64,000 bases of DNA from a virus (IMGVR_UViG_3300031867_000046:1255-65254), one strand, 5' to 3'; positions 24,024-28,613 are shown, numbered from the stretch's first letter. Translations and numbers: made by a program. Notes: a model not told the origin generated them from the letters alone.

Positions 24024-24704
24024 CTATTCTATGTACAATAATGAGCCCTTTAACGAAGTAATATAAGCTTCGTAGTCACTCATGTTATGGCTATGTAAAC
24101 AATCAAGAATTTCGCCAAAATCTTTAAGTTCTTTGCCTTCAAAATTAGTTGGCGGCTTTAATCGTCTTATATGTATGCCTTTATCCATTCCTGAATGCTT
24201 TAACTGTAAACGCTTTGCTGCATCGTTGCCTGCGTTGTCGTTGTCAAATGCACAGTATAATGTTGAGCATGTCCCTAATAAAAATGATAGCACTGTATTT
24301 GAAACGGCTGTGCCGTTTGTAGCTATAACGTACGGATAAAAGTTTCTTAAAAAGTCAGAATCAAGCGCAGACTCAACAATAATCCAAGGTTTTGAGTATG
24401 GCTTATTGTTTACACCTGCACCGTACGGAATGTATTGACACTCATTATAGTATCTGAAAAGCTTATCGCCACATGATCTAAACATAATAGCTGTAACTTC
24501 GCCATTTACTATATTAGGCATAGCTATACATTTACCTTGTTCTGCGATAAACTGTTTTAGATATCCGTCTAATTTATCATAACGAAATGCGTCCATACTC
24601 GTTGCTAATCTATACGGATTATTGAATGCTAACGAATAGGACGCATATTTGTTATATGGCTGATCTATTTGTGGAAGTGAGTAAAAGTATTCAGTTAAAC
24701 TCAT
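24024..24704 (-). CDS. TOPRIM DNA primase-like protein
   Basis: IIVESALD, VIATNGT, LYCAFDNDNAG (DxD) and KDFGE motifs. Confidence 0.8.
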   Translation of the reverse strand: MSLTEYFYSLPQIDQPYNKYASYSLAFNNPYRLATSMDAFRYDKLDGYLKQFIAEQGKCIAMPNIVNGEVTAIMFRSCGDKLFRYYNECQYIPYGAGVNNKPYSKPWIIVESALDSDFLRNFYPYVIATNGTAVSNTVLSFLLGTCSTLYCAFDNDNAGNDAAKRLQLKHSGMDKGIHIRRLKPPTNFEGKELKDFGEILDCLHSHNMSDYEAYITSLKGSLLYIE

Positions 24705-24710
24705 AATAAC

Positions 24711-25388
24711 CTAATCAGCATCAGATTGATCTTGAAGTGTAAACTCACCTTTGTCAGCAACGTAAATTCTATCCCCGTACTCTATAAACTTCATGTCGTG
24801 TGTGATTAAAACAATCGACAGGCCTGTTTCAGCACACAAGGTTTTTAGAAACTCCATAAAGTTAGGCACATAAATCTTTGATAGCTGTGAAAGTTGCTCA
24901 TCAAGAAACAAGTATTTGTCTACATCAAGGTTGATTATGTAGAAAATTTGGATAATTGATGCGATAACTACAAGGACACCGCCTGCGACGTTAGAGTTCT
25001 TTACAGGAATCAAGTTGCCATTATCGTTAAGCAAAAGCTCTACGCATTTTGTGTTACGCTTATCGACTACTTTTATCTGTATAGAATAGTTACGGTCAAA
25101 AAATATTTTCTTTAATCCTATTGTGATTAGCTCTTCTAATTTCTTTAACAATGAATCAGAAAATTTGCTAATAATGTCGTCTATAATAGGTTTACAGTTT
25201 CTTAATGTGGCTTTTTCATTTTCTAATACGCTGATTCTGTTATCAACGTCTGCTATAGAAGCTTTTGTGTTCTCTATAGCAGACTGAATGCCGCGATATT
25301 TGATCAGTGTATCAGTTAAGCACTTTTCAAAATCAGCATTAAGCATATACTTATTCCCAATACACGTATGCTGATTTAGAGTCAACAT
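24711..25388 (-). CDS. SbcC/Rad50/gp46 C-terminal half
   Basis: Coiled coil, then signature-like VAGGV, Walker B LFLDEQ and H-loop LITHD; no Walker A. Confidence 0.85.
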   Translation of the reverse strand: MLTLNQHTCIGNKYMLNADFEKCLTDTLIKYRGIQSAIENTKASIADVDNRISVLENEKATLRNCKPIIDDIISKFSDSLLKKLEELITIGLKKIFFDRNYSIQIKVVDKRNTKCVELLLNDNGNLIPVKNSNVAGGVLVVIASIIQIFYIINLDVDKYLFLDEQLSQLSKIYVPNFMEFLKTLCAETGLSIVLITHDMKFIEYGDRIYVADKGEFTLQDQSDAD

Positions 25389-25671: not shown

Positions 25672-26202
25672 CTACGTTGTATGGCTATTTCTCATGTGAT
25701 ACTCATAAAAATCTGATGACGCGTAAGAAGCACCAATCGCAAACTCATCATCCATTATAGCATTAGGCTTAATACATTCTTCTGCTAAATAAGATGCACC
25801 TATCGTGAAGTCGTCAGGCTGATCTTTGTCTTTATAGTAATCATAATGATGAGTTCTTCCGTGAATTGTAAAGTCATCAAATTTTAAAGCGGGTGTCTGC
25901 GTGAAAATGCCATCACGTGTTCCATGCTTGCTATGTGATCTTCGTGTGCAAGTTTCGTAAGCATACTTATCGTCTGATACACGAGTTACTTTTATAGGAT
26001 GAGTGTTAACTTTATATCTGTGATTAAACTGCTCACATTTAGCTTTAGCTTTTTCTAATGTGTCATACTTTTTAACTATATACTCGTCGCCGTCGTCAAA
26101 TACAAATCGAACAGCAAAACAAGACTCACTAACTTTTAAATTGTAATGATACTTTGTAAGAGGATACGCGTTAAACACACGATGATTTTTCTCGAATAAC
26201 AT
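25672..26202 (-). CDS. Hypothetical protein
   Basis: 176-aa ORF; no motif recognised. Confidence 0.55.
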   Translation of the reverse strand: MLFEKNHRVFNAYPLTKYHYNLKVSESCFAVRFVFDDGDEYIVKKYDTLEKAKAKCEQFNHRYKVNTHPIKVTRVSDDKYAYETCTRRSHSKHGTRDGIFTQTPALKFDDFTIHGRTHHYDYYKDKDQPDDFTIGASYLAEECIKPNAIMDDEFAIGASYASSDFYEYHMRNSHTT

Positions 26203-26452
26203 ACTTAAGCTCTCTATATAATGTGGTTACTAAATTAACGAAATTACCTTTTATTATATAGATATTTAGACGAATTACAGTAGTATGAAAAATTCTGATG
26301 CTTATAAAGTTTGCGCGGCACTACATAGAAAATTCTTTTAAGCTGAATTAGCAGCGAGAAACTTTCAAAAAATTTCTTAATCTGAAAAAATCGCGCGGGA
26401 TTCTACATAAAATTCAGTTTAGTTGAATTAGACGGTACATGAAGATGGATAC

Positions 26453-26512
26453 TAATATATAAAATATAATATTATATATTAATATTAATAAAATATAATA
26501 TATTATATTTAT
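26453..26512. repeat. 60-bp A/T-only tract with a 19-bp perfect inverted repeat (origin-like unwinding element)
   Basis: Arms 26462-26480 aaatataatattatatatt and 26492-26510 aatatataatattatattt; no G/C from 26453 to 26512. Confidence 0.8.
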
Positions 26513-26562
26513 CTTTATTTTATGAAATGAAGATGTAGAATGTAGTGTTTATTCTACTATAT
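26509..26562. repeat. 54-bp direct repeat, copy 1 (double hairpin)
   Basis: ttatctt[t]attttatgaaatgaagatgtagaatgtagtgtttattctactatat; matches 27151-27204 with one mismatch. Confidence 0.9.
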
Positions 26563-27150
26563 ACAAATTTCTTTAGAATGTGCCGCGAATTTTGATAGAA
26601 GGCTCAAAAATTTTCTGCTTGATTAGAAATTTAGAAGCAAGACAGCGGCAGAAATTTTGATTAACAGTGAAAATTTCGCTTGATAGCTTTCAAAATTTTG
26701 TTTAATACTATAAAGAAGGTATACCAAATTGAAGCACATTTCCTTCGTAAAAAATAAAATAGAATATCCCTATAAGTACGCTACATTATTTTAAGAAAGT
26801 CTACGTTATGTACCATTTGCGTAGAAAGTTTATTAAATTTTAACACAGAGCTTTATTAGATGCGTCTTATTCAGCAAAGTGCTGTGAGAGAACATTATAG
26901 CATTCACGCGGTAGCCGTTTGTTACTAACTATAAAATGGCAAGCTCATTGACTAAATACAATGTTAAGCTTCCACCCTGTCGTATATCGTGTTACATCTC
27001 ACTAATTACAAGTTTCGCACTATGTGGTCGGTTATCTTGTAATTGATCATGGAAATCCTCGGTAGCCGTACAGATTCCACGCACAAGTCAAATATACTGA
27101 CCTGAATACAGCCCGCAGTCGCATAACATACGAGCAAACATGTCGGCAGC

Positions 27151-27204
27151 TTATCTTCATTTTATGAAATGAAGATGTAGAATGTAGTGTTTATTCTACT
27201 ATAT
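27151..27204. repeat. 54-bp direct repeat, copy 2 (double hairpin)
   Basis: atcttcattt-tatg-aaatgaagat (10-bp stem) immediately followed by gtagaat-N9-attctac (7-bp stem). Confidence 0.9.
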
Positions 27205-27540
27205 TCTGTTATGCTCAACTTTTTCAGTTTGCAGATAATACCATTTCTTTCAATGCTGCAAACCCTAATTACGTGATTTAATTAACAAATAATGGAAATT
27301 TAGCGATTCATTATTTGTTATCACGTATCAGGATGATCAATCGCTAATCTGATTTTGTTGTTTGTACACCCAATAGTCTGCTGTCATATCGCAGTTTGCT
27401 TATTCAGTTTTTGAACAGTTCATAACTACTAATTAGAGTAACTCTAACTGACGCCCCTACACAGGATGGGAAGTTAATCTCCAATGGTAATGCGATGTGT
27501 ACTACGTATCTTCCATCAGGACATAGGATCTAAATCAAGT
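27205..27540. ncRNA. Candidate structured non-coding RNA containing an H-type pseudoknot
   Basis: No ORF. S1 27284-27294/27309-27319 (11 bp) and S2 27300-27308/27339-27347 (9 bp), plus further stems gtttgcag/ctgcaaac and gatgg(g)aag/cttccatc. Confidence 0.45.
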
Positions 27541-27560
27541 ACATAAATTATATACAAACA

Positions 27561-27604
27561 AAAATCCCACTATTTAACCTGTTACGGAAAAATAGTGGGA
27601 TTTT
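27561..27604 (-). terminator. Intrinsic terminator-like hairpin
   Basis: aaaatcccactattt / aaatagtgggatttt. Confidence 0.75.
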
Positions 27605-27686
27605 ATAAAGAACATAGACAGTTTATTAGGTGATAAGTTCTGCTTTCACCATCTGTCTAATATATTGATATTGAGAAATTTTTAGC

Positions 27687-28613
27687 TTATCCAATTAATC
27701 GCCATCTTCCAAACTTATCTTGCTCAACTAACACATTTAGCACATTTCCGCGTGCAAATTTACCTGTGTTATAGTAAGTTAGAATACGTCCAGAGTTGTC
27801 TGCTATTATCTCTACAGGCGTTTGATGAGTGTGACCGCATATTATTGTATGGTAGATTCTTGGTTGCTTAGAAATGAAATCTAAGGCGCCATTTGCAACT
27901 CTACGATCTTCACTGTTTAATGAGTCTAATGTTACTTGTTTTGGTTTTTGATTAACTTTATTATCACTTGATTGATCTGTATAGTAATCTCTACCTCTCA
28001 ATAGATCTTCTAAATCAGGTGAGCAAACATTAGCAACTATATCACTTGCAAAAGTACCCATAAGACCTAAAAAGTTTTTTCCTGAGCACAGATAGTCAAA
28101 TTTGTGGCCATGCTCAAAAATAATTCCACACCTTGAAAACATATTATCTTCACGCGTGTTATATTTTACAGTCTCAACAAGCGATAGTCTAGGGAACCCA
28201 GCAACGTCAGAAAAAAATTTAGCGTCTTTATCGTGATTCCCTGCTACGTAAATAATGTTACTTGTATATAGCCACGGCTCTATTGATGATAGCAGGAGTC
28301 TATACGCGTATGAGTAGTAGCATGAAGTGTACCCATATTCTCCGTTTATAACGTCACCTAATAAAACTAACATGTGCTTATTATCGTTAAATAGACCTTG
28401 CTTTCCACTAATAATGATTTTATCACAGAATCTTTTTAGAGTATAAGCTTCGCCTGATAACGGACTTCCATCTGACGAAAACACATAATCGTTCCTGCCT
28501 GCACATTTGGGTGACGCGTCGTTACCTATATGCAAGTCACTAATTACACAAAATTCCGCTCGATTGTCGTCTAATTTAGTATAGTTAAAAATTCCAGATT
28601 GTACACTTTCCAT
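27687..28613 (-). CDS. Calcineurin-like metallophosphoesterase
   Basis: SDLHIG, LLGDVING, AGNHD, FEHGH and CGHTH motifs. Confidence 0.9.
   Translation of the reverse strand: MESVQSGIFNYTKLDDNRAEFCVISDLHIGNDASPKCAGRNDYVFSSDGSPLSGEAYTLKRFCDKIIISGKQGLFNDNKHMLVLLGDVINGEYGYTSCYYSYAYRLLLSSIEPWLYTSNIIYVAGNHDKDAKFFSDVAGFPRLSLVETVKYNTREDNMFSRCGIIFEHGHKFDYLCSGKNFLGLMGTFASDIVANVCSPDLEDLLRGRDYYTDQSSDNKVNQKPKQVTLDSLNSEDRRVANGALDFISKQPRIYHTIICGHTHQTPVEIIADNSGRILTYYNTGKFARGNVLNVLVEQDKFGRWRLIG

What the first reader, a model, noticed from the sequence alone, without database searches (positions are those of the whole stretch)
27205..27540. Candidate large structured ncRNA with a clean H-type pseudoknot
Seen: ORF-free segment in which aacaaataatg (27284-94) pairs with cattatttgtt (27309-19), and ttagcgatt (27300-08) pairs with aatcgctaa (27339-47). 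Loops are 5/0/19 nt, the canonical H-type topology. Other stems: gtttgcag/ctgcaaac, ctgc/gcag, ttagag/ctctaa, gatgg(g)aag/cttccatc. It follows a terminator (27561-27604) and a TGTATA motif (27551). Known: large phages encode tmRNA, RNase P and ornate large RNAs (ROOL, GOLLD). I could not match any of these by eye, so it may be a new class. Strand is uncertain because the G.U wobble evidence is mixed.
Basis: partly seen in the sequence, partly recalled or inferred. Interest (0 to 1): 0.7.

Follow-up and report, generated by a model that had tools for sequence, protein, structure and literature searches.

The report
New knotted RNA gene, rumen phage
A giant phage from the cow rumen carries a gene for a folded, protein-free RNA of about 300 bases, kept in shape across a dozen related phages and matching no catalogued RNA family; it always sits directly in front of a repeat-rich, A+T-rich stretch that looks like a DNA replication start site.

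Summary
Both interleaved stems are in the sequence exactly as described, and such a pair arose in only 4 of 200 shuffles.

I found 11 further distinct copies in rumen and gut jumbo-phage contigs, 47-80% identical to each other apart from one near-identical pair. They keep the same fold through compensatory changes:
- 25 of 46 pairs in the 5' domain;
- 30 of 33 pairs in stems S1, S2 and a newly found stem S3.

G.U against A.C counts (76:11) put the RNA on the window's minus strand, the gene strand. The conserved core is 27520 to 27227, about 294 nt.

The knot therefore sits at the tip of a bulged rod of about 27 bp, not in a simple H-type fold.

No Rfam 15 family matches, in the window or in five relatives. 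Contigs from four rumen metatranscriptome runs cover this RNA at 100% identity.

In all eleven lineages with downstream sequence the RNA runs, without a terminator, into G-less repeats and then a block of 0-12% G+C. Its function is unknown. My best guess, at about one in three, is a role at a replication origin.

Earlier scan notes describe other orphan RNAs in rumen jumbo phages. None shares this sequence.

The parts
27561..27604 (-). Intrinsic terminator of the upstream phosphoesterase gene (27687-28613): 15-bp perfect stem, 14-nt loop, T-run on the minus strand.
   Evidence: The stem is kept with different letters in L007. A similar terminator precedes the RNA in L018 and L019.
27539..27552 (-). 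Candidate promoter and start region: TATAAT at 27552-27547, then the ATGTAC box at 27544-27539. The box corresponds to a TGTAG box 20-25 nt before helix 1 in most relatives.
   Evidence: This is inferred; no 5' end has been mapped.
27227..27520 (-). Conserved core of the RNA (called RNA-B here), about 294 nt and 14 helices.
   Evidence: nhmmer hits at E 1e-82 and 4e-70; alignments A3 and A4; covariation; strand.
27479..27520 (-). Helices 1 and 2: the 5' hairpin, with near-invariant strands and a variable tip.
   Evidence: 97% of cells paired; 4 pairs have changes on both sides.
27367..27470 (-). Multi-helix junction domain (helices 3-9).
   Evidence: helices 3-8 have 20 of 27 pairs with changes on both sides.
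27397..27423 (-). Nearly invariant 27-nt motif: a 5-bp hairpin with a pentaloop set in an invariant internal loop. One Y-R pair always changes on both sides together.
   Evidence: pair 143-155: CG 8, UA 4, none broken.
27359..27366 (-). Invariant single-stranded junction (UACAARCA) between the two domains.
27339..27347 (-). S2 5' arm. It pairs with 27300-27308 in the apical loop of S1.
   Evidence: 7 of 9 pairs changed on both sides. S2 was not part of the model that made the alignment; combined p about 1e-6.
27300..27308 (-). S2 3' arm, inside the apical loop.
27309..27320 (-). S1 5' arm in RNA sense. It pairs with 27283-27294.
   Evidence: 11 of 12 pairs changed on both sides.
27283..27294 (-). 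S1 3' arm in RNA sense.
27321..27334 (-). It pairs with 27262-27276.
   Evidence: the same extended hairpin is the minimum-energy fold in 11 of 12 sequences; 12 of 12 pairs changed on both sides.
27262..27276 (-). S3 3' arm, with one bulged A.
27277..27282 (-). Bulge on the 3' side between S1 and S3, present at 5-9 nt in every homolog. It is a candidate hinge.
   Evidence: The hinge role is inferred.
27227..27263 (-).
   Evidence: inner helix 100% paired. The outer stem is replaced by a shorter one with different letters in the distant clade.
27151..27204 (.). 54-nt repeat, copy B, directly after the RNA. It holds degenerate G-less repeat units and two hairpins, and is homologous in position to the tandem 12-nt repeats of relatives.
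26563..27150 (-). Unit A: a second conserved, G+C-richer, ORF-free segment lodged between the two repeat copies. It is a likely second structured RNA.
26509..26562 (.). 54-nt repeat, copy A.
26449..26520 (.). Extremely A+T-rich, partly palindromic block (about 10-12% G+C over 100 nt). It is a candidate DNA-unwinding element.

Best explanation
The segment is a real gene for a structured non-coding RNA of a family that is not in Rfam. It is read from the minus strand. The conserved core is 27520 to 27227, and transcription probably starts near 27541, behind a TATAAT that follows the upstream gene's terminator.

The RNA has two domains. The first is a 5' domain of nine helices around invariant junction letters. 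The second is a 3' domain in which a bulged rod of about 27 bp (S3 plus S1) carries an apical loop. That loop pairs with the strand just 5' of the rod (S2).

Shown:
- the fold;
- its conservation;
- the strand;
- the absence of a terminator at the 3' end;
- the invariable neighbourhood.

Inferred function, about one chance in three: the RNA is the structured head of the transcript that enters the adjacent origin-like DNA. That DNA consists of G-less tandem repeats, then a 0-12% G+C block, then further repeated boxes, upstream of the SbcC-like ATPase and Toprim primase genes. The RNA would act there in cis on replication initiation or its control, for instance by bringing a phage replication protein or by setting the fate of the origin transcript.

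My confidence that it is a genuine conserved structured RNA is about 0.95. The figure below is for the whole statement, function included.
For: Fold and conservation:
- There are 12 distinct sequences, 47-80% identical apart from L018 and L019, which are 96% alike.
- In the 5' domain 92.9% of cells are paired against 80.2% in shuffles (0 of 500 shuffles reach it). 25 of 46 pairs have changes on both sides. Slid controls give 32-42% paired.
- In the 3' domain 75.8% are paired against 59.2% (0 of 500). 33 of 45 pairs have changes on both sides. Slid controls give 39-49%.
- In the near clade the RNA is better conserved (79-80% nt) than the flanking gene (69% nt).

Strand:
- G.U to A.C cells are 76:11 in the 5' domain.
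- Consensus folding energy is -35.8 on the minus strand against -21.3 on the plus strand.

Not a known family:
- cmscan against Rfam 15 found nothing at gathering score, and nothing at E up to 10 that recurs at the RNA's place in homologs.
- ARAGORN found no tmRNA.

Expression hint:
- Contigs from four rumen metatranscriptome runs lie on 27143-27603 at 100% identity.
- None lies on unit A or the A+T-rich part of the query.
- One contig runs from inside the RNA across its 3' hairpin and through repeat copy B.

Neighbourhood:
- In every locus with downstream sequence, an A-rich linker, tandem or hairpin repeats and a 0-12% G+C block follow the RNA.
- This includes both copies in one 204-kb phage, which lie in different gene neighbourhoods.
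- The syntenic copy sits between SbcD and a clamp-like gene on one side and the SbcC-like ATPase and Toprim genes on the other.
Against: - No origin has been mapped. GC skew in the 204-kb relative simply follows gene orientation.
- The repeats are G-less on the RNA-like strand, which does not favour a stable RNA-DNA hybrid of the ColE1 type (the rule is from my own knowledge).
- In four lineages an insert of 190-840 nt separates the RNA from the A+T-rich block.
- A strongly invariant core is more typical of an RNA that binds a conserved partner than of a primer transcript.
- The RNA contigs cannot show strand, ends or level, and RNA libraries can hold DNA.
- The RNA was not found within 6-7 kb of the phosphoesterase gene in seven more distant relatives.
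Confidence: 0.35

Rival explanations
1. It is a free-standing, trans-acting RNA whose position next to the repeats is incidental. It could be the RNA part of a phage ribonucleoprotein, a ribozyme, a decoy for a host factor, or a self-assembling RNA in which S2 forms between two molecules.
For: - Invariant junction and loop letters with freely varying, covarying peripheral helices are the pattern of ribozymes and RNP scaffolds.
- A conserved 95-aa ORF lies directly upstream in five relatives.
- Two tRNA genes lie directly upstream on the same strand in L035.
- The S2 5' arm is tethered only 4-8 nt from the base of a 27-bp rod while its partner is in the apical loop. This is awkward within one molecule (geometry is inferred).
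- Homo-oligomers held by covarying intermolecular contacts are documented for ROOL, GOLLD and OLE (10.1101/2024.12.08.627333).
Against: - There is no terminator or other defined 3' end, and one RNA-library contig reads through into the repeat.
- The 95-aa gene is absent from the window, and the upstream gene differs between lineages.
- No catalytic or ligand-binding motif was recognised.
Confidence: 0.3
2. It is a cis-acting leader of the downstream operon (small genes, SbcC-like ATPase, Toprim primase). It could be a processive antitermination element or a sensor that decides whether RNA polymerase reads through the repeats and hairpins.
For: - It lies just after a terminator and at the head of a new transcription unit, co-oriented with the downstream genes.
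- No terminator lies between it and those genes.
- The downstream ATPase and Toprim genes are syntenic in the window, L009, L035 and L059.
Against: - 460-1300 nt of non-coding DNA separate it from the next ORF. In relatives a ribosome-binding site, and what looks like a separate promoter, lie just before that ORF.
- The second copy in the 204-kb phage is followed by unrelated genes.
- No expression platform such as a terminator/antiterminator pair is conserved.
Confidence: 0.2
3. The conserved pairings act in DNA, not RNA. They would be single-stranded DNA hairpins at an origin or packaging site, or palindromic protein-binding sites.
For: - The element adjoins repeats and an A+T-rich block.
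- Several assemblies break here.
- Weinberg et al. noted that plasmid replication motifs might work as ssDNA (PMC5737381).
Against: - The pairing is strongly strand-specific, with many invariant G.U pairs that would be A.C on the other strand. Double-stranded palindromes would not show this.
- The fold has 14 helices and multi-helix junctions, far beyond known ssDNA origin hairpins.
- RNA-library contigs cover it.
- The assembly breaks fall at the tandem repeats, as short-read assemblers would produce.
Confidence: 0.07
4. It is a short protein-coding region or has no function: the pairings are chance, or the conservation reflects a tiny ORF.
For: A 7-codon frame with an NUG start and a UAA stop overlaps the invariant hairpin in all 12 sequences. 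Its two variable third positions are synonymous.
Against: - Those two positions always change together (12 of 12), which a helix requires and a reading frame does not.
- Stop codons fill all frames.
- No ribosome-binding site precedes the frame.
- 58 pairs show changes on both sides.
Confidence: 0.03

Closest known systems
ROOL and GOLLD RNAs (large ornate RNAs of bacteria and phages; PMC5737381, 10.1101/2024.12.08.627333)
   Same: All are orphan, complex-folded, pseudoknotted RNAs. ROOL was first found in cow rumen data and both are often phage-borne, sometimes next to tRNA genes. Their conservation shows up as covariation rather than as sequence identity.
   Different: There is no match to their Rfam models in the window or in five relatives. 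This RNA is about 300 nt, against 581 nt for ROOL and longer still for GOLLD. Its fixed position in front of repeats and an A+T-rich block is not described for them.
ARRPOF motif and the other plasmid-associated structured motifs of 223-349 nt (Weinberg et al. 2017, PMC5737381)
   Same: ARRPOF is a mid-sized structured motif inside a gene-free region of about 1 kb that suffices for replication of a Fusobacterium plasmid. It has a similar size and the same kind of setting: a structured element inside a replication control region.
   Different: There is no Rfam match to ARRPOF. The replicon here is a jumbo phage, not a plasmid. A replication role is shown for neither RNA itself.
Origin transcripts: ColE1 RNA II pre-primer and the T4 oriF/oriG R-loop transcripts (from my own knowledge)
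   Same: In both, a promoter-driven transcript runs without termination into an origin or unwinding element. In ColE1 the upstream folding of the RNA decides what happens at the origin.
   Different: Those RNAs have no deeply conserved knotted core. ColE1 relies on a G-rich RNA stretch, whereas the repeats here are G-less. Nothing here shows RNase H processing or priming.
Classical H-type pseudoknot
   Same: S1 and S2 interleave in the H-type order with no nucleotide at the junction.
   Different: The long 'loop' is base-paired (S3). The second stem is therefore about 27 bp with a conserved bulge. The 4-8-nt connector cannot span that length unless the rod bends sharply or the pairing is between two molecules (geometry is inferred).
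Other orphan RNAs of rumen and gut jumbo phages noted earlier in this scan (e1-5666216, e1-5674043, e1-5635660 and others)
   Same: Same habitat and kind of phage, similar size (255-335 nt), pseudoknots, and no Rfam match. One is described as 'a pseudoknot and a long hairpin'.
   Different: Look-ups by sequence with the window's copy and two distant copies found no shared words with any of them. I could not read their sequences, so the relationship is untested.

Membership tests
Any Rfam 15 family (including ROOL, GOLLD, ARRPOF, HEARO, RNase P, tmRNA, group I/II introns, riboswitches) | Score at or above the family's gathering threshold against its covariance model. | tested here: not met
   There were 0 matches at gathering score in the whole window. 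At E up to 10 only scattered sub-threshold hits to unrelated small RNAs appeared, and none recurs at the RNA in five homolog loci.
tmRNA | A tRNA-like domain formed by the 5' and 3' ends, plus a tag reading frame. | tested here: not met
   ARAGORN found no tmRNA in the window or in 11 homolog loci. The 7-codon frame in the invariant hairpin has no tRNA-like partner.
Classical H-type pseudoknot | Two stems with interleaved arms. | tested here: met
   S1 and S2 interleave in the window and in the homologs.
Classical H-type pseudoknot | Connecting loops are single-stranded and long enough to cross the grooves of the stacked stems. | tested here: not met
   The long loop is paired as S3, with 12 of 12 pairs covarying. 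The remaining connector is 4-8 nt against a rod of about 27 bp.
Origin pre-primer or origin-activating transcript (ColE1 RNA II / T4 oriF type) | The transcript runs without termination into a replication origin. | tested here: inconclusive
   No terminator follows the RNA, and repeats plus an A+T-rich block follow in all loci. One RNA-library contig bridges the RNA and the repeat. That the block is an origin is not shown.
Origin pre-primer or origin-activating transcript (ColE1 RNA II / T4 oriF type) | A persistent RNA-DNA hybrid is formed and processed into a primer. | not testable with these tools
   This needs biochemistry. The G-less composition of the repeats argues against a ColE1-like hybrid there.
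Riboswitch or cis-regulatory leader | An aptamer directly followed by an expression platform and the regulated ORF. | tested here: not met
   The next ORF is 460-1300 nt away, and no conserved terminator/antiterminator pair is present.
Guide RNA of TnpB/IscB (omega RNA) | It lies at the 3' end of, or next to, a tnpB or iscB gene. | tested here: not met
   No such gene lies next to any of the 12 copies. The TnpB genes seen in other relatives have no copy of this RNA nearby.

The most novel reading that the evidence does not exclude
RNA-B marks and licenses replication origins. On this reading a conserved knotted RNA, made at the origin itself, recruits or positions the phage's initiation machinery on the adjoining repeats. 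Alternatively it pairs head-to-tail with a second copy through S2 to bridge DNA-bound complexes. The two oppositely oriented copies in the 204-kb relative would then mark two origins. The repeat-flanked slot behind the RNA, which holds unit A here and other inserts elsewhere, would be a site where further structured RNAs are added to the same transcript.
Probability: 0.2. Interest if true: 0.8.

Novelty: new variant of a known kind. Interest (0 to 1): 0.62.

Why it matters
Complex-folded RNAs with invariant cores are rare, and those whose function has been established turned out to be ribozymes, sensors or scaffolds of central machines.

This one is well defined: 14 helices, 58 pairs with compensatory changes, and a settled strand. 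It is small enough for probing, cryo-EM and synthesis. It also comes with a testable context, because it always heads a repeat-rich and A+T-rich region inside the replication gene module of uncultured rumen jumbo phages, and one phage has two copies.

If it acts at an origin, it would be a new way for a phage to start or control DNA replication. If it acts in trans or self-assembles, it adds a compact member to the small set of ornate phage RNAs. Either way it gives a seed alignment for a new RNA family, and a second candidate (unit A) lies next to it.

Tried and rejected
- **Phage records.** megablast, blastn and tblastn of the gap and of the phosphoesterase against 50,697 phage records found no match.
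- **IMG/VR.** The search for related loci with the single protein and two exact-pattern scans found nothing. A looser helix-1 pattern gave 84 loci, of which only L016, L035 and L059 are true.
- **Bacterial genomes.** A scan of 185,579 species genomes for the invariant 24-mer gave one hit, in a Longimicrobium MAG. It matches only the motif (nhmmer E 0.006 over 33 nt; no CM hit), so I treat it as chance.
- **Distant relatives.** Seven relatives that carry the phosphoesterase (L020, L022, L024, L025, L110, L113, L115) have no copy within the fetched flanks.
- **Promoter scans.** The sigma-70 scan was at the chance level (17 found, 15.9 expected). The TATAAT-plus-ATGTA pattern is not enriched in the window. 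The start site therefore stays an inference.
- **GC skew.** As an origin test in the 204-kb relative it follows gene orientation and is uninformative.
- **Neighbouring small proteins.** Pfam and PHROGs gave only sub-threshold hits.
- **Long-range pairing.** Complementarity between the invariant junction and the T-run after the terminator (I18) is not kept in the distant clade, so I dropped it.
- **RNA contigs.** They cannot rank expression or show strand. Parts without cover say nothing.
- **Full-length model.** I did not attempt a full-length covariance model because of the calibration limit. Only the 144-position 3' domain was modelled.
- **Literature.** A search for a described phage RNA of this kind found nothing specific.

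Full report
**Setting.** The window is 64 kb of a 65-kb IMG/VR virus contig judged about 30% complete, so the phage is probably jumbo-sized. Every ORF of 100 codons or more that is not nested in a longer one is on the minus strand. The finding lies in the largest non-coding gap of the window, 26203-27686. This gap sits between a calcineurin-like phosphoesterase gene (27687-28613) and a 176-codon gene (25672-26202). All three stop codons occur in all six frames of the gap, and no frame stays open for more than 53 codons. Recoding therefore does not rescue a gene.

**The observation.**
- S1 is in fact 12 perfect pairs (27283-94 with 27309-20). S2 is 9 perfect pairs (27300-08 with 27339-47).
- In 200 dinucleotide-preserving shuffles of the window, inverted repeats of 12 bp or more were expected 0.23 times. 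An interleaved pair of stems of 9 bp or more appeared in 4 shuffles.
- Folding energy alone would not have flagged the region: z = -0.38 on the plus strand and -1.84 on the minus strand.
- Rfam 15 gives nothing at gathering score in the window, and only noise at E up to 10 in the gap.

**Relatives.** Public phage records hold nothing similar. The flanking phosphoesterase, however, has 51 relatives in metagenome protein collections. Their contigs came mostly from cattle, goat and other gut metagenomes, and with them came the neighbouring DNA.
- In L007 the protein is 65% identical, and the same 1483-nt gap is present and alignable almost throughout.
- In more distant phages, extra genes have been inserted after the phosphoesterase. 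A segment of about 300 nt homologous to 27219-27527 persists further downstream.
- A nearly invariant 26-mer from it retrieved four more loci from IMG/VR and JGI metagenomes. A helix-1 pattern retrieved two more.
- In all there are 12 distinct sequences. They are 47-80% identical to one another, except L018 and L019, which are 96% alike.
- Within the near clade the segment is more conserved (79-80% nt) than the protein-coding gene beside it (69% nt).

**The fold.**
- *First pass.* RNAalifold on ten sequences predicted 53 pairs, of which 26 had compensatory changes.
- *5' domain.* I used the plain MAFFT alignment of twelve sequences. The nine helices have 92.9% of cells paired, against 80.2% when partners are shuffled (0 of 500 shuffles reach it). 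25 of 46 pairs show changes on both sides. Sliding the partners by 1-3 columns drops pairing to 32-42%.
- *3' domain, each sequence folded alone.* The same extended hairpin was the minimum-energy fold in 11 of 12 sequences.
- *S2.* In 10 of the 12 sequences the apical loop is complementary over 6-9 pairs to the strand that starts 10-13 nt after the invariant junction UACAARCA. L035 keeps only 4 G-C pairs, and L019's lowest-energy fold was a different one. The arm letters differ between lineages. The combined p is about 1e-6, which is not corrected for relatedness.
- *3' domain, model-based alignment.* A covariance model of this domain, built without S2, realigned the sequences. On that alignment S2 has 7 of 9 pairs with changes on both sides, S3 has 12 of 12, and S1 has 11 of 12. 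Overall 75.8% of cells pair, against 59.2% in shuffles (0 of 500) and 39-49% when slid.
- *Caveat.* This alignment was fitted to S1 and S3 but not to S2, so S2's support is independent of the fitting.

The pseudoknot is real.

1. *Strand.* The 5' domain has 76 G.U cells against 11 A.C cells. Several G.U pairs are invariant and would be A.C on the other strand. The consensus folding energy is -35.8 on the minus strand against -21.3 on the plus strand. The RNA is read from the minus strand, like the genes.
2. *The 19-nt 'loop'.* It is the 5' strand of S3. In RNA sense the order is S2a, S3a, S1a, S2b, S1b, S3b.
   - By ordinary A-form geometry (my inference), a 4-8-nt connector at the base of a 27-bp rod cannot reach its tip.
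   - So either the conserved bulge (27277-27282) folds S1 back along S3, which is of similar length, or S2 forms between two molecules lying head to tail.
   - Covarying intermolecular contacts of that kind are documented for ROOL, GOLLD and OLE (10.1101/2024.12.08.627333).
3. *The four extra stems.* Two are conserved: the outer 3' hairpin and the variable hairpin at 27432-27448. The other two are replaced by covarying alternatives.
4. *Extent.* The conserved core is 27520-27227, about 294 nt.

**Ends and expression.**
- The hairpin at 27561-27604 is the terminator of the upstream gene. Its T-run is on the minus strand, and L007 keeps the stem with different letters.
- A TATAAT lies at 27552-27547. 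A box that reads TGTAG in most relatives lies 20-25 nt before helix 1.
- L018 and L019 also have a terminator immediately before this box. This argues for a separate start, but generic promoter scans were at the chance level.
- At the 3' end there is no terminator in any lineage. The last hairpin is followed by an A-rich linker.
- Logan contigs from four rumen metatranscriptome runs of four studies lie at 27143-27400, 27369-27603, 27342-27578 and 27371-27527 with no mismatches.
  - In two of the runs this is the only piece on the 6.5 kb laid.
  - None covers unit A or the A+T-rich part, although those belonged to the search query.
  - One piece bridges the RNA's 3' hairpin and the following repeat.
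- This is a weak hint of an abundant RNA. Contigs show neither strand nor ends, and RNA libraries can contain DNA.

**Neighbourhood.**
- *Downstream elements.* In every locus with downstream sequence the order is the same.
  - First come tandem 12-nt repeats of 3-9 units, without G on the RNA-like strand. In some lineages a repeated hairpin element stands in their place.
  - Then comes a block of 0-12% G+C.
  - Then come scattered repeated boxes, which are CCGC-containing in most phages.
  - Last come a ribosome-binding site and small genes.
- *The window.* Here the element is the 54-nt repeat (27151-27204). It contains degenerate copies of the same G-less unit.
- *Syntenic genes.* In the window, L009, L035 and L059 the next conserved genes are an SbcC-like ATPase (24711-25388, 77-79% identical in protein) and a Toprim protein (24024-24704). 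SbcD, a clamp-like protein, HU and dCMP deaminase lie upstream.
- *Two copies in one phage.* The 204-kb, 95%-complete relative has two copies of the RNA, at 84.6 kb (minus) and 146.1 kb (plus). They lie in different gene neighbourhoods, and each is followed by repeats and an A+T-rich block.
- *Other neighbours.* The upstream neighbour varies: phosphoesterase, a conserved 95-aa protein, tRNA genes, or unrelated small genes.
- *Reading.* The one constant partner of the RNA is therefore the repeat and A+T-rich region. That region has the anatomy of a replication origin, with iterons and an unwinding element next to primase and recombination genes. GC skew cannot confirm this, because it follows gene orientation.

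**Mechanism.**
- *Shown:* a conserved, knotted, minus-strand RNA fold with an invariant core, no terminator behind it, and a fixed position in front of an origin-like region.
- *Inferred, about one in three:* the RNA is the structured head of the transcript that enters this region, and it acts there in cis on initiation of replication or its control.
- *Known parallels.*
  - ColE1 RNA II and the T4 oriF/oriG transcripts (from my own knowledge).
  - The ARRPOF motif, a structured element inside a 1-kb gene-free region that suffices for replication of a Fusobacterium plasmid (PMC5737381).
- *Against this reading.*
  - The repeats are G-less, which is unfavourable for a ColE1-like hybrid.
  - In four lineages an insert of 190-840 nt separates the RNA from the A+T-rich block.
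  - The degree of core conservation points instead to a conserved binding partner.
- *Rivals.* A trans-acting RNP, ribozyme or self-assembling RNA (about 0.3). A cis-acting leader or antitermination element for the downstream replication genes (about 0.2). A single-stranded DNA structure (below 0.1). A tiny ORF or chance (about 0.03).
- *The tiny frame.* A 7-codon frame overlaps the invariant hairpin. Its two synonymous positions always change together, as a helix requires.

**Comparison and novelty.**
- The RNA fails the membership test for every Rfam 15 family, including ROOL, GOLLD, ARRPOF, tmRNA and RNase P.
- It is not next to any TnpB or IscB gene.
- In kind it resembles the orphan ornate RNAs of phages and rumen bacteria.
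- Earlier notes of this scan describe several other orphan RNAs in rumen jumbo phages. Look-ups by sequence with three divergent copies found none that shares this sequence.
- I therefore class it as a new family within a known kind, with a distinctive and testable genomic context.

**Beside it.** Unit A (26563-27150) lies between the two 54-nt repeats. It is also conserved in L007, L005 and, with a large insertion, L016. It shows 33 compensatory pairs of 62 on the same strand, with G.U to A.C cells of 43:1. It is probably a second structured RNA lodged in a repeat-flanked slot that holds other inserts in other lineages.

Noticed in passing
window 26563-27150 (minus-strand sense): Unit A, the 588 nt between the two 54-nt repeats, looks like a second structured RNA. 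It is conserved in L007, L005 and L016. RNAalifold gives 62 pairs, 33 of them with compensatory change. G.U to A.C cells are 43:1 in this sense and 22:10 in antisense. It has no Rfam match.
   Followed up: partly
window 26509-27204; L016:8725-9660; L018:6060-6620; L059:733-1030: In four lineages the repeat element that follows the RNA is duplicated around an insert of 190-840 nt. It acts as a repeat-flanked slot with different contents in different lineages.
   Followed up: partly
G001 (contig of L016 and L035), about 84.6 kb (-) and 146.1 kb (+): One 204-kb, 95%-complete relative carries two diverged copies of the RNA (about 51% identical), 61 kb apart and in opposite orientation. Each is co-oriented with its neighbouring genes and each is followed by repeats and an A+T-rich block.
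   Followed up: partly
L009:6234-6530, L013:7135-7434, L008:7657-7974, L017:722-1030 (-), L059:93-380: A conserved protein of about 95 aa (68-86% identical, no significant Pfam family) lies directly upstream of the RNA in five relatives. It is not found in the window.
   Followed up: partly
L035:3639-3894 (-): Two tRNA genes lie directly upstream of the RNA on the same strand in this relative. ARAGORN reads one of them with an odd anticodon loop.
   Followed up: no
window 27397-27423 (minus strand): A 7-codon frame (NUG start, UAA stop) overlaps the invariant hairpin in all 12 sequences. Its two variable third positions always change together, which fits a helix and not a coding constraint.
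   Followed up: yes
window 26306-26431 and 26449-26520: There are two 46-nt direct repeats (72% alike) with GCGCGG cores, and a palindromic block of about 10-12% G+C. Relatives have CCGC-containing boxes in the same relative position.
   Followed up: partly
ends of L004, L005, L006, L011, L014: Five independent assemblies end inside or just after the RNA or its repeats. This is most simply an assembly break at the repeats rather than a genome end.
   Followed up: no
L110:14547+, L113:10097-11623, L115:11812-13338: TnpB-like genes (OrfB_IS605 / Cas12f1-like) with about 650 nt of non-coding DNA behind them occur in more distant relatives of this phage group. There is no copy of the RNA there.
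   Followed up: no
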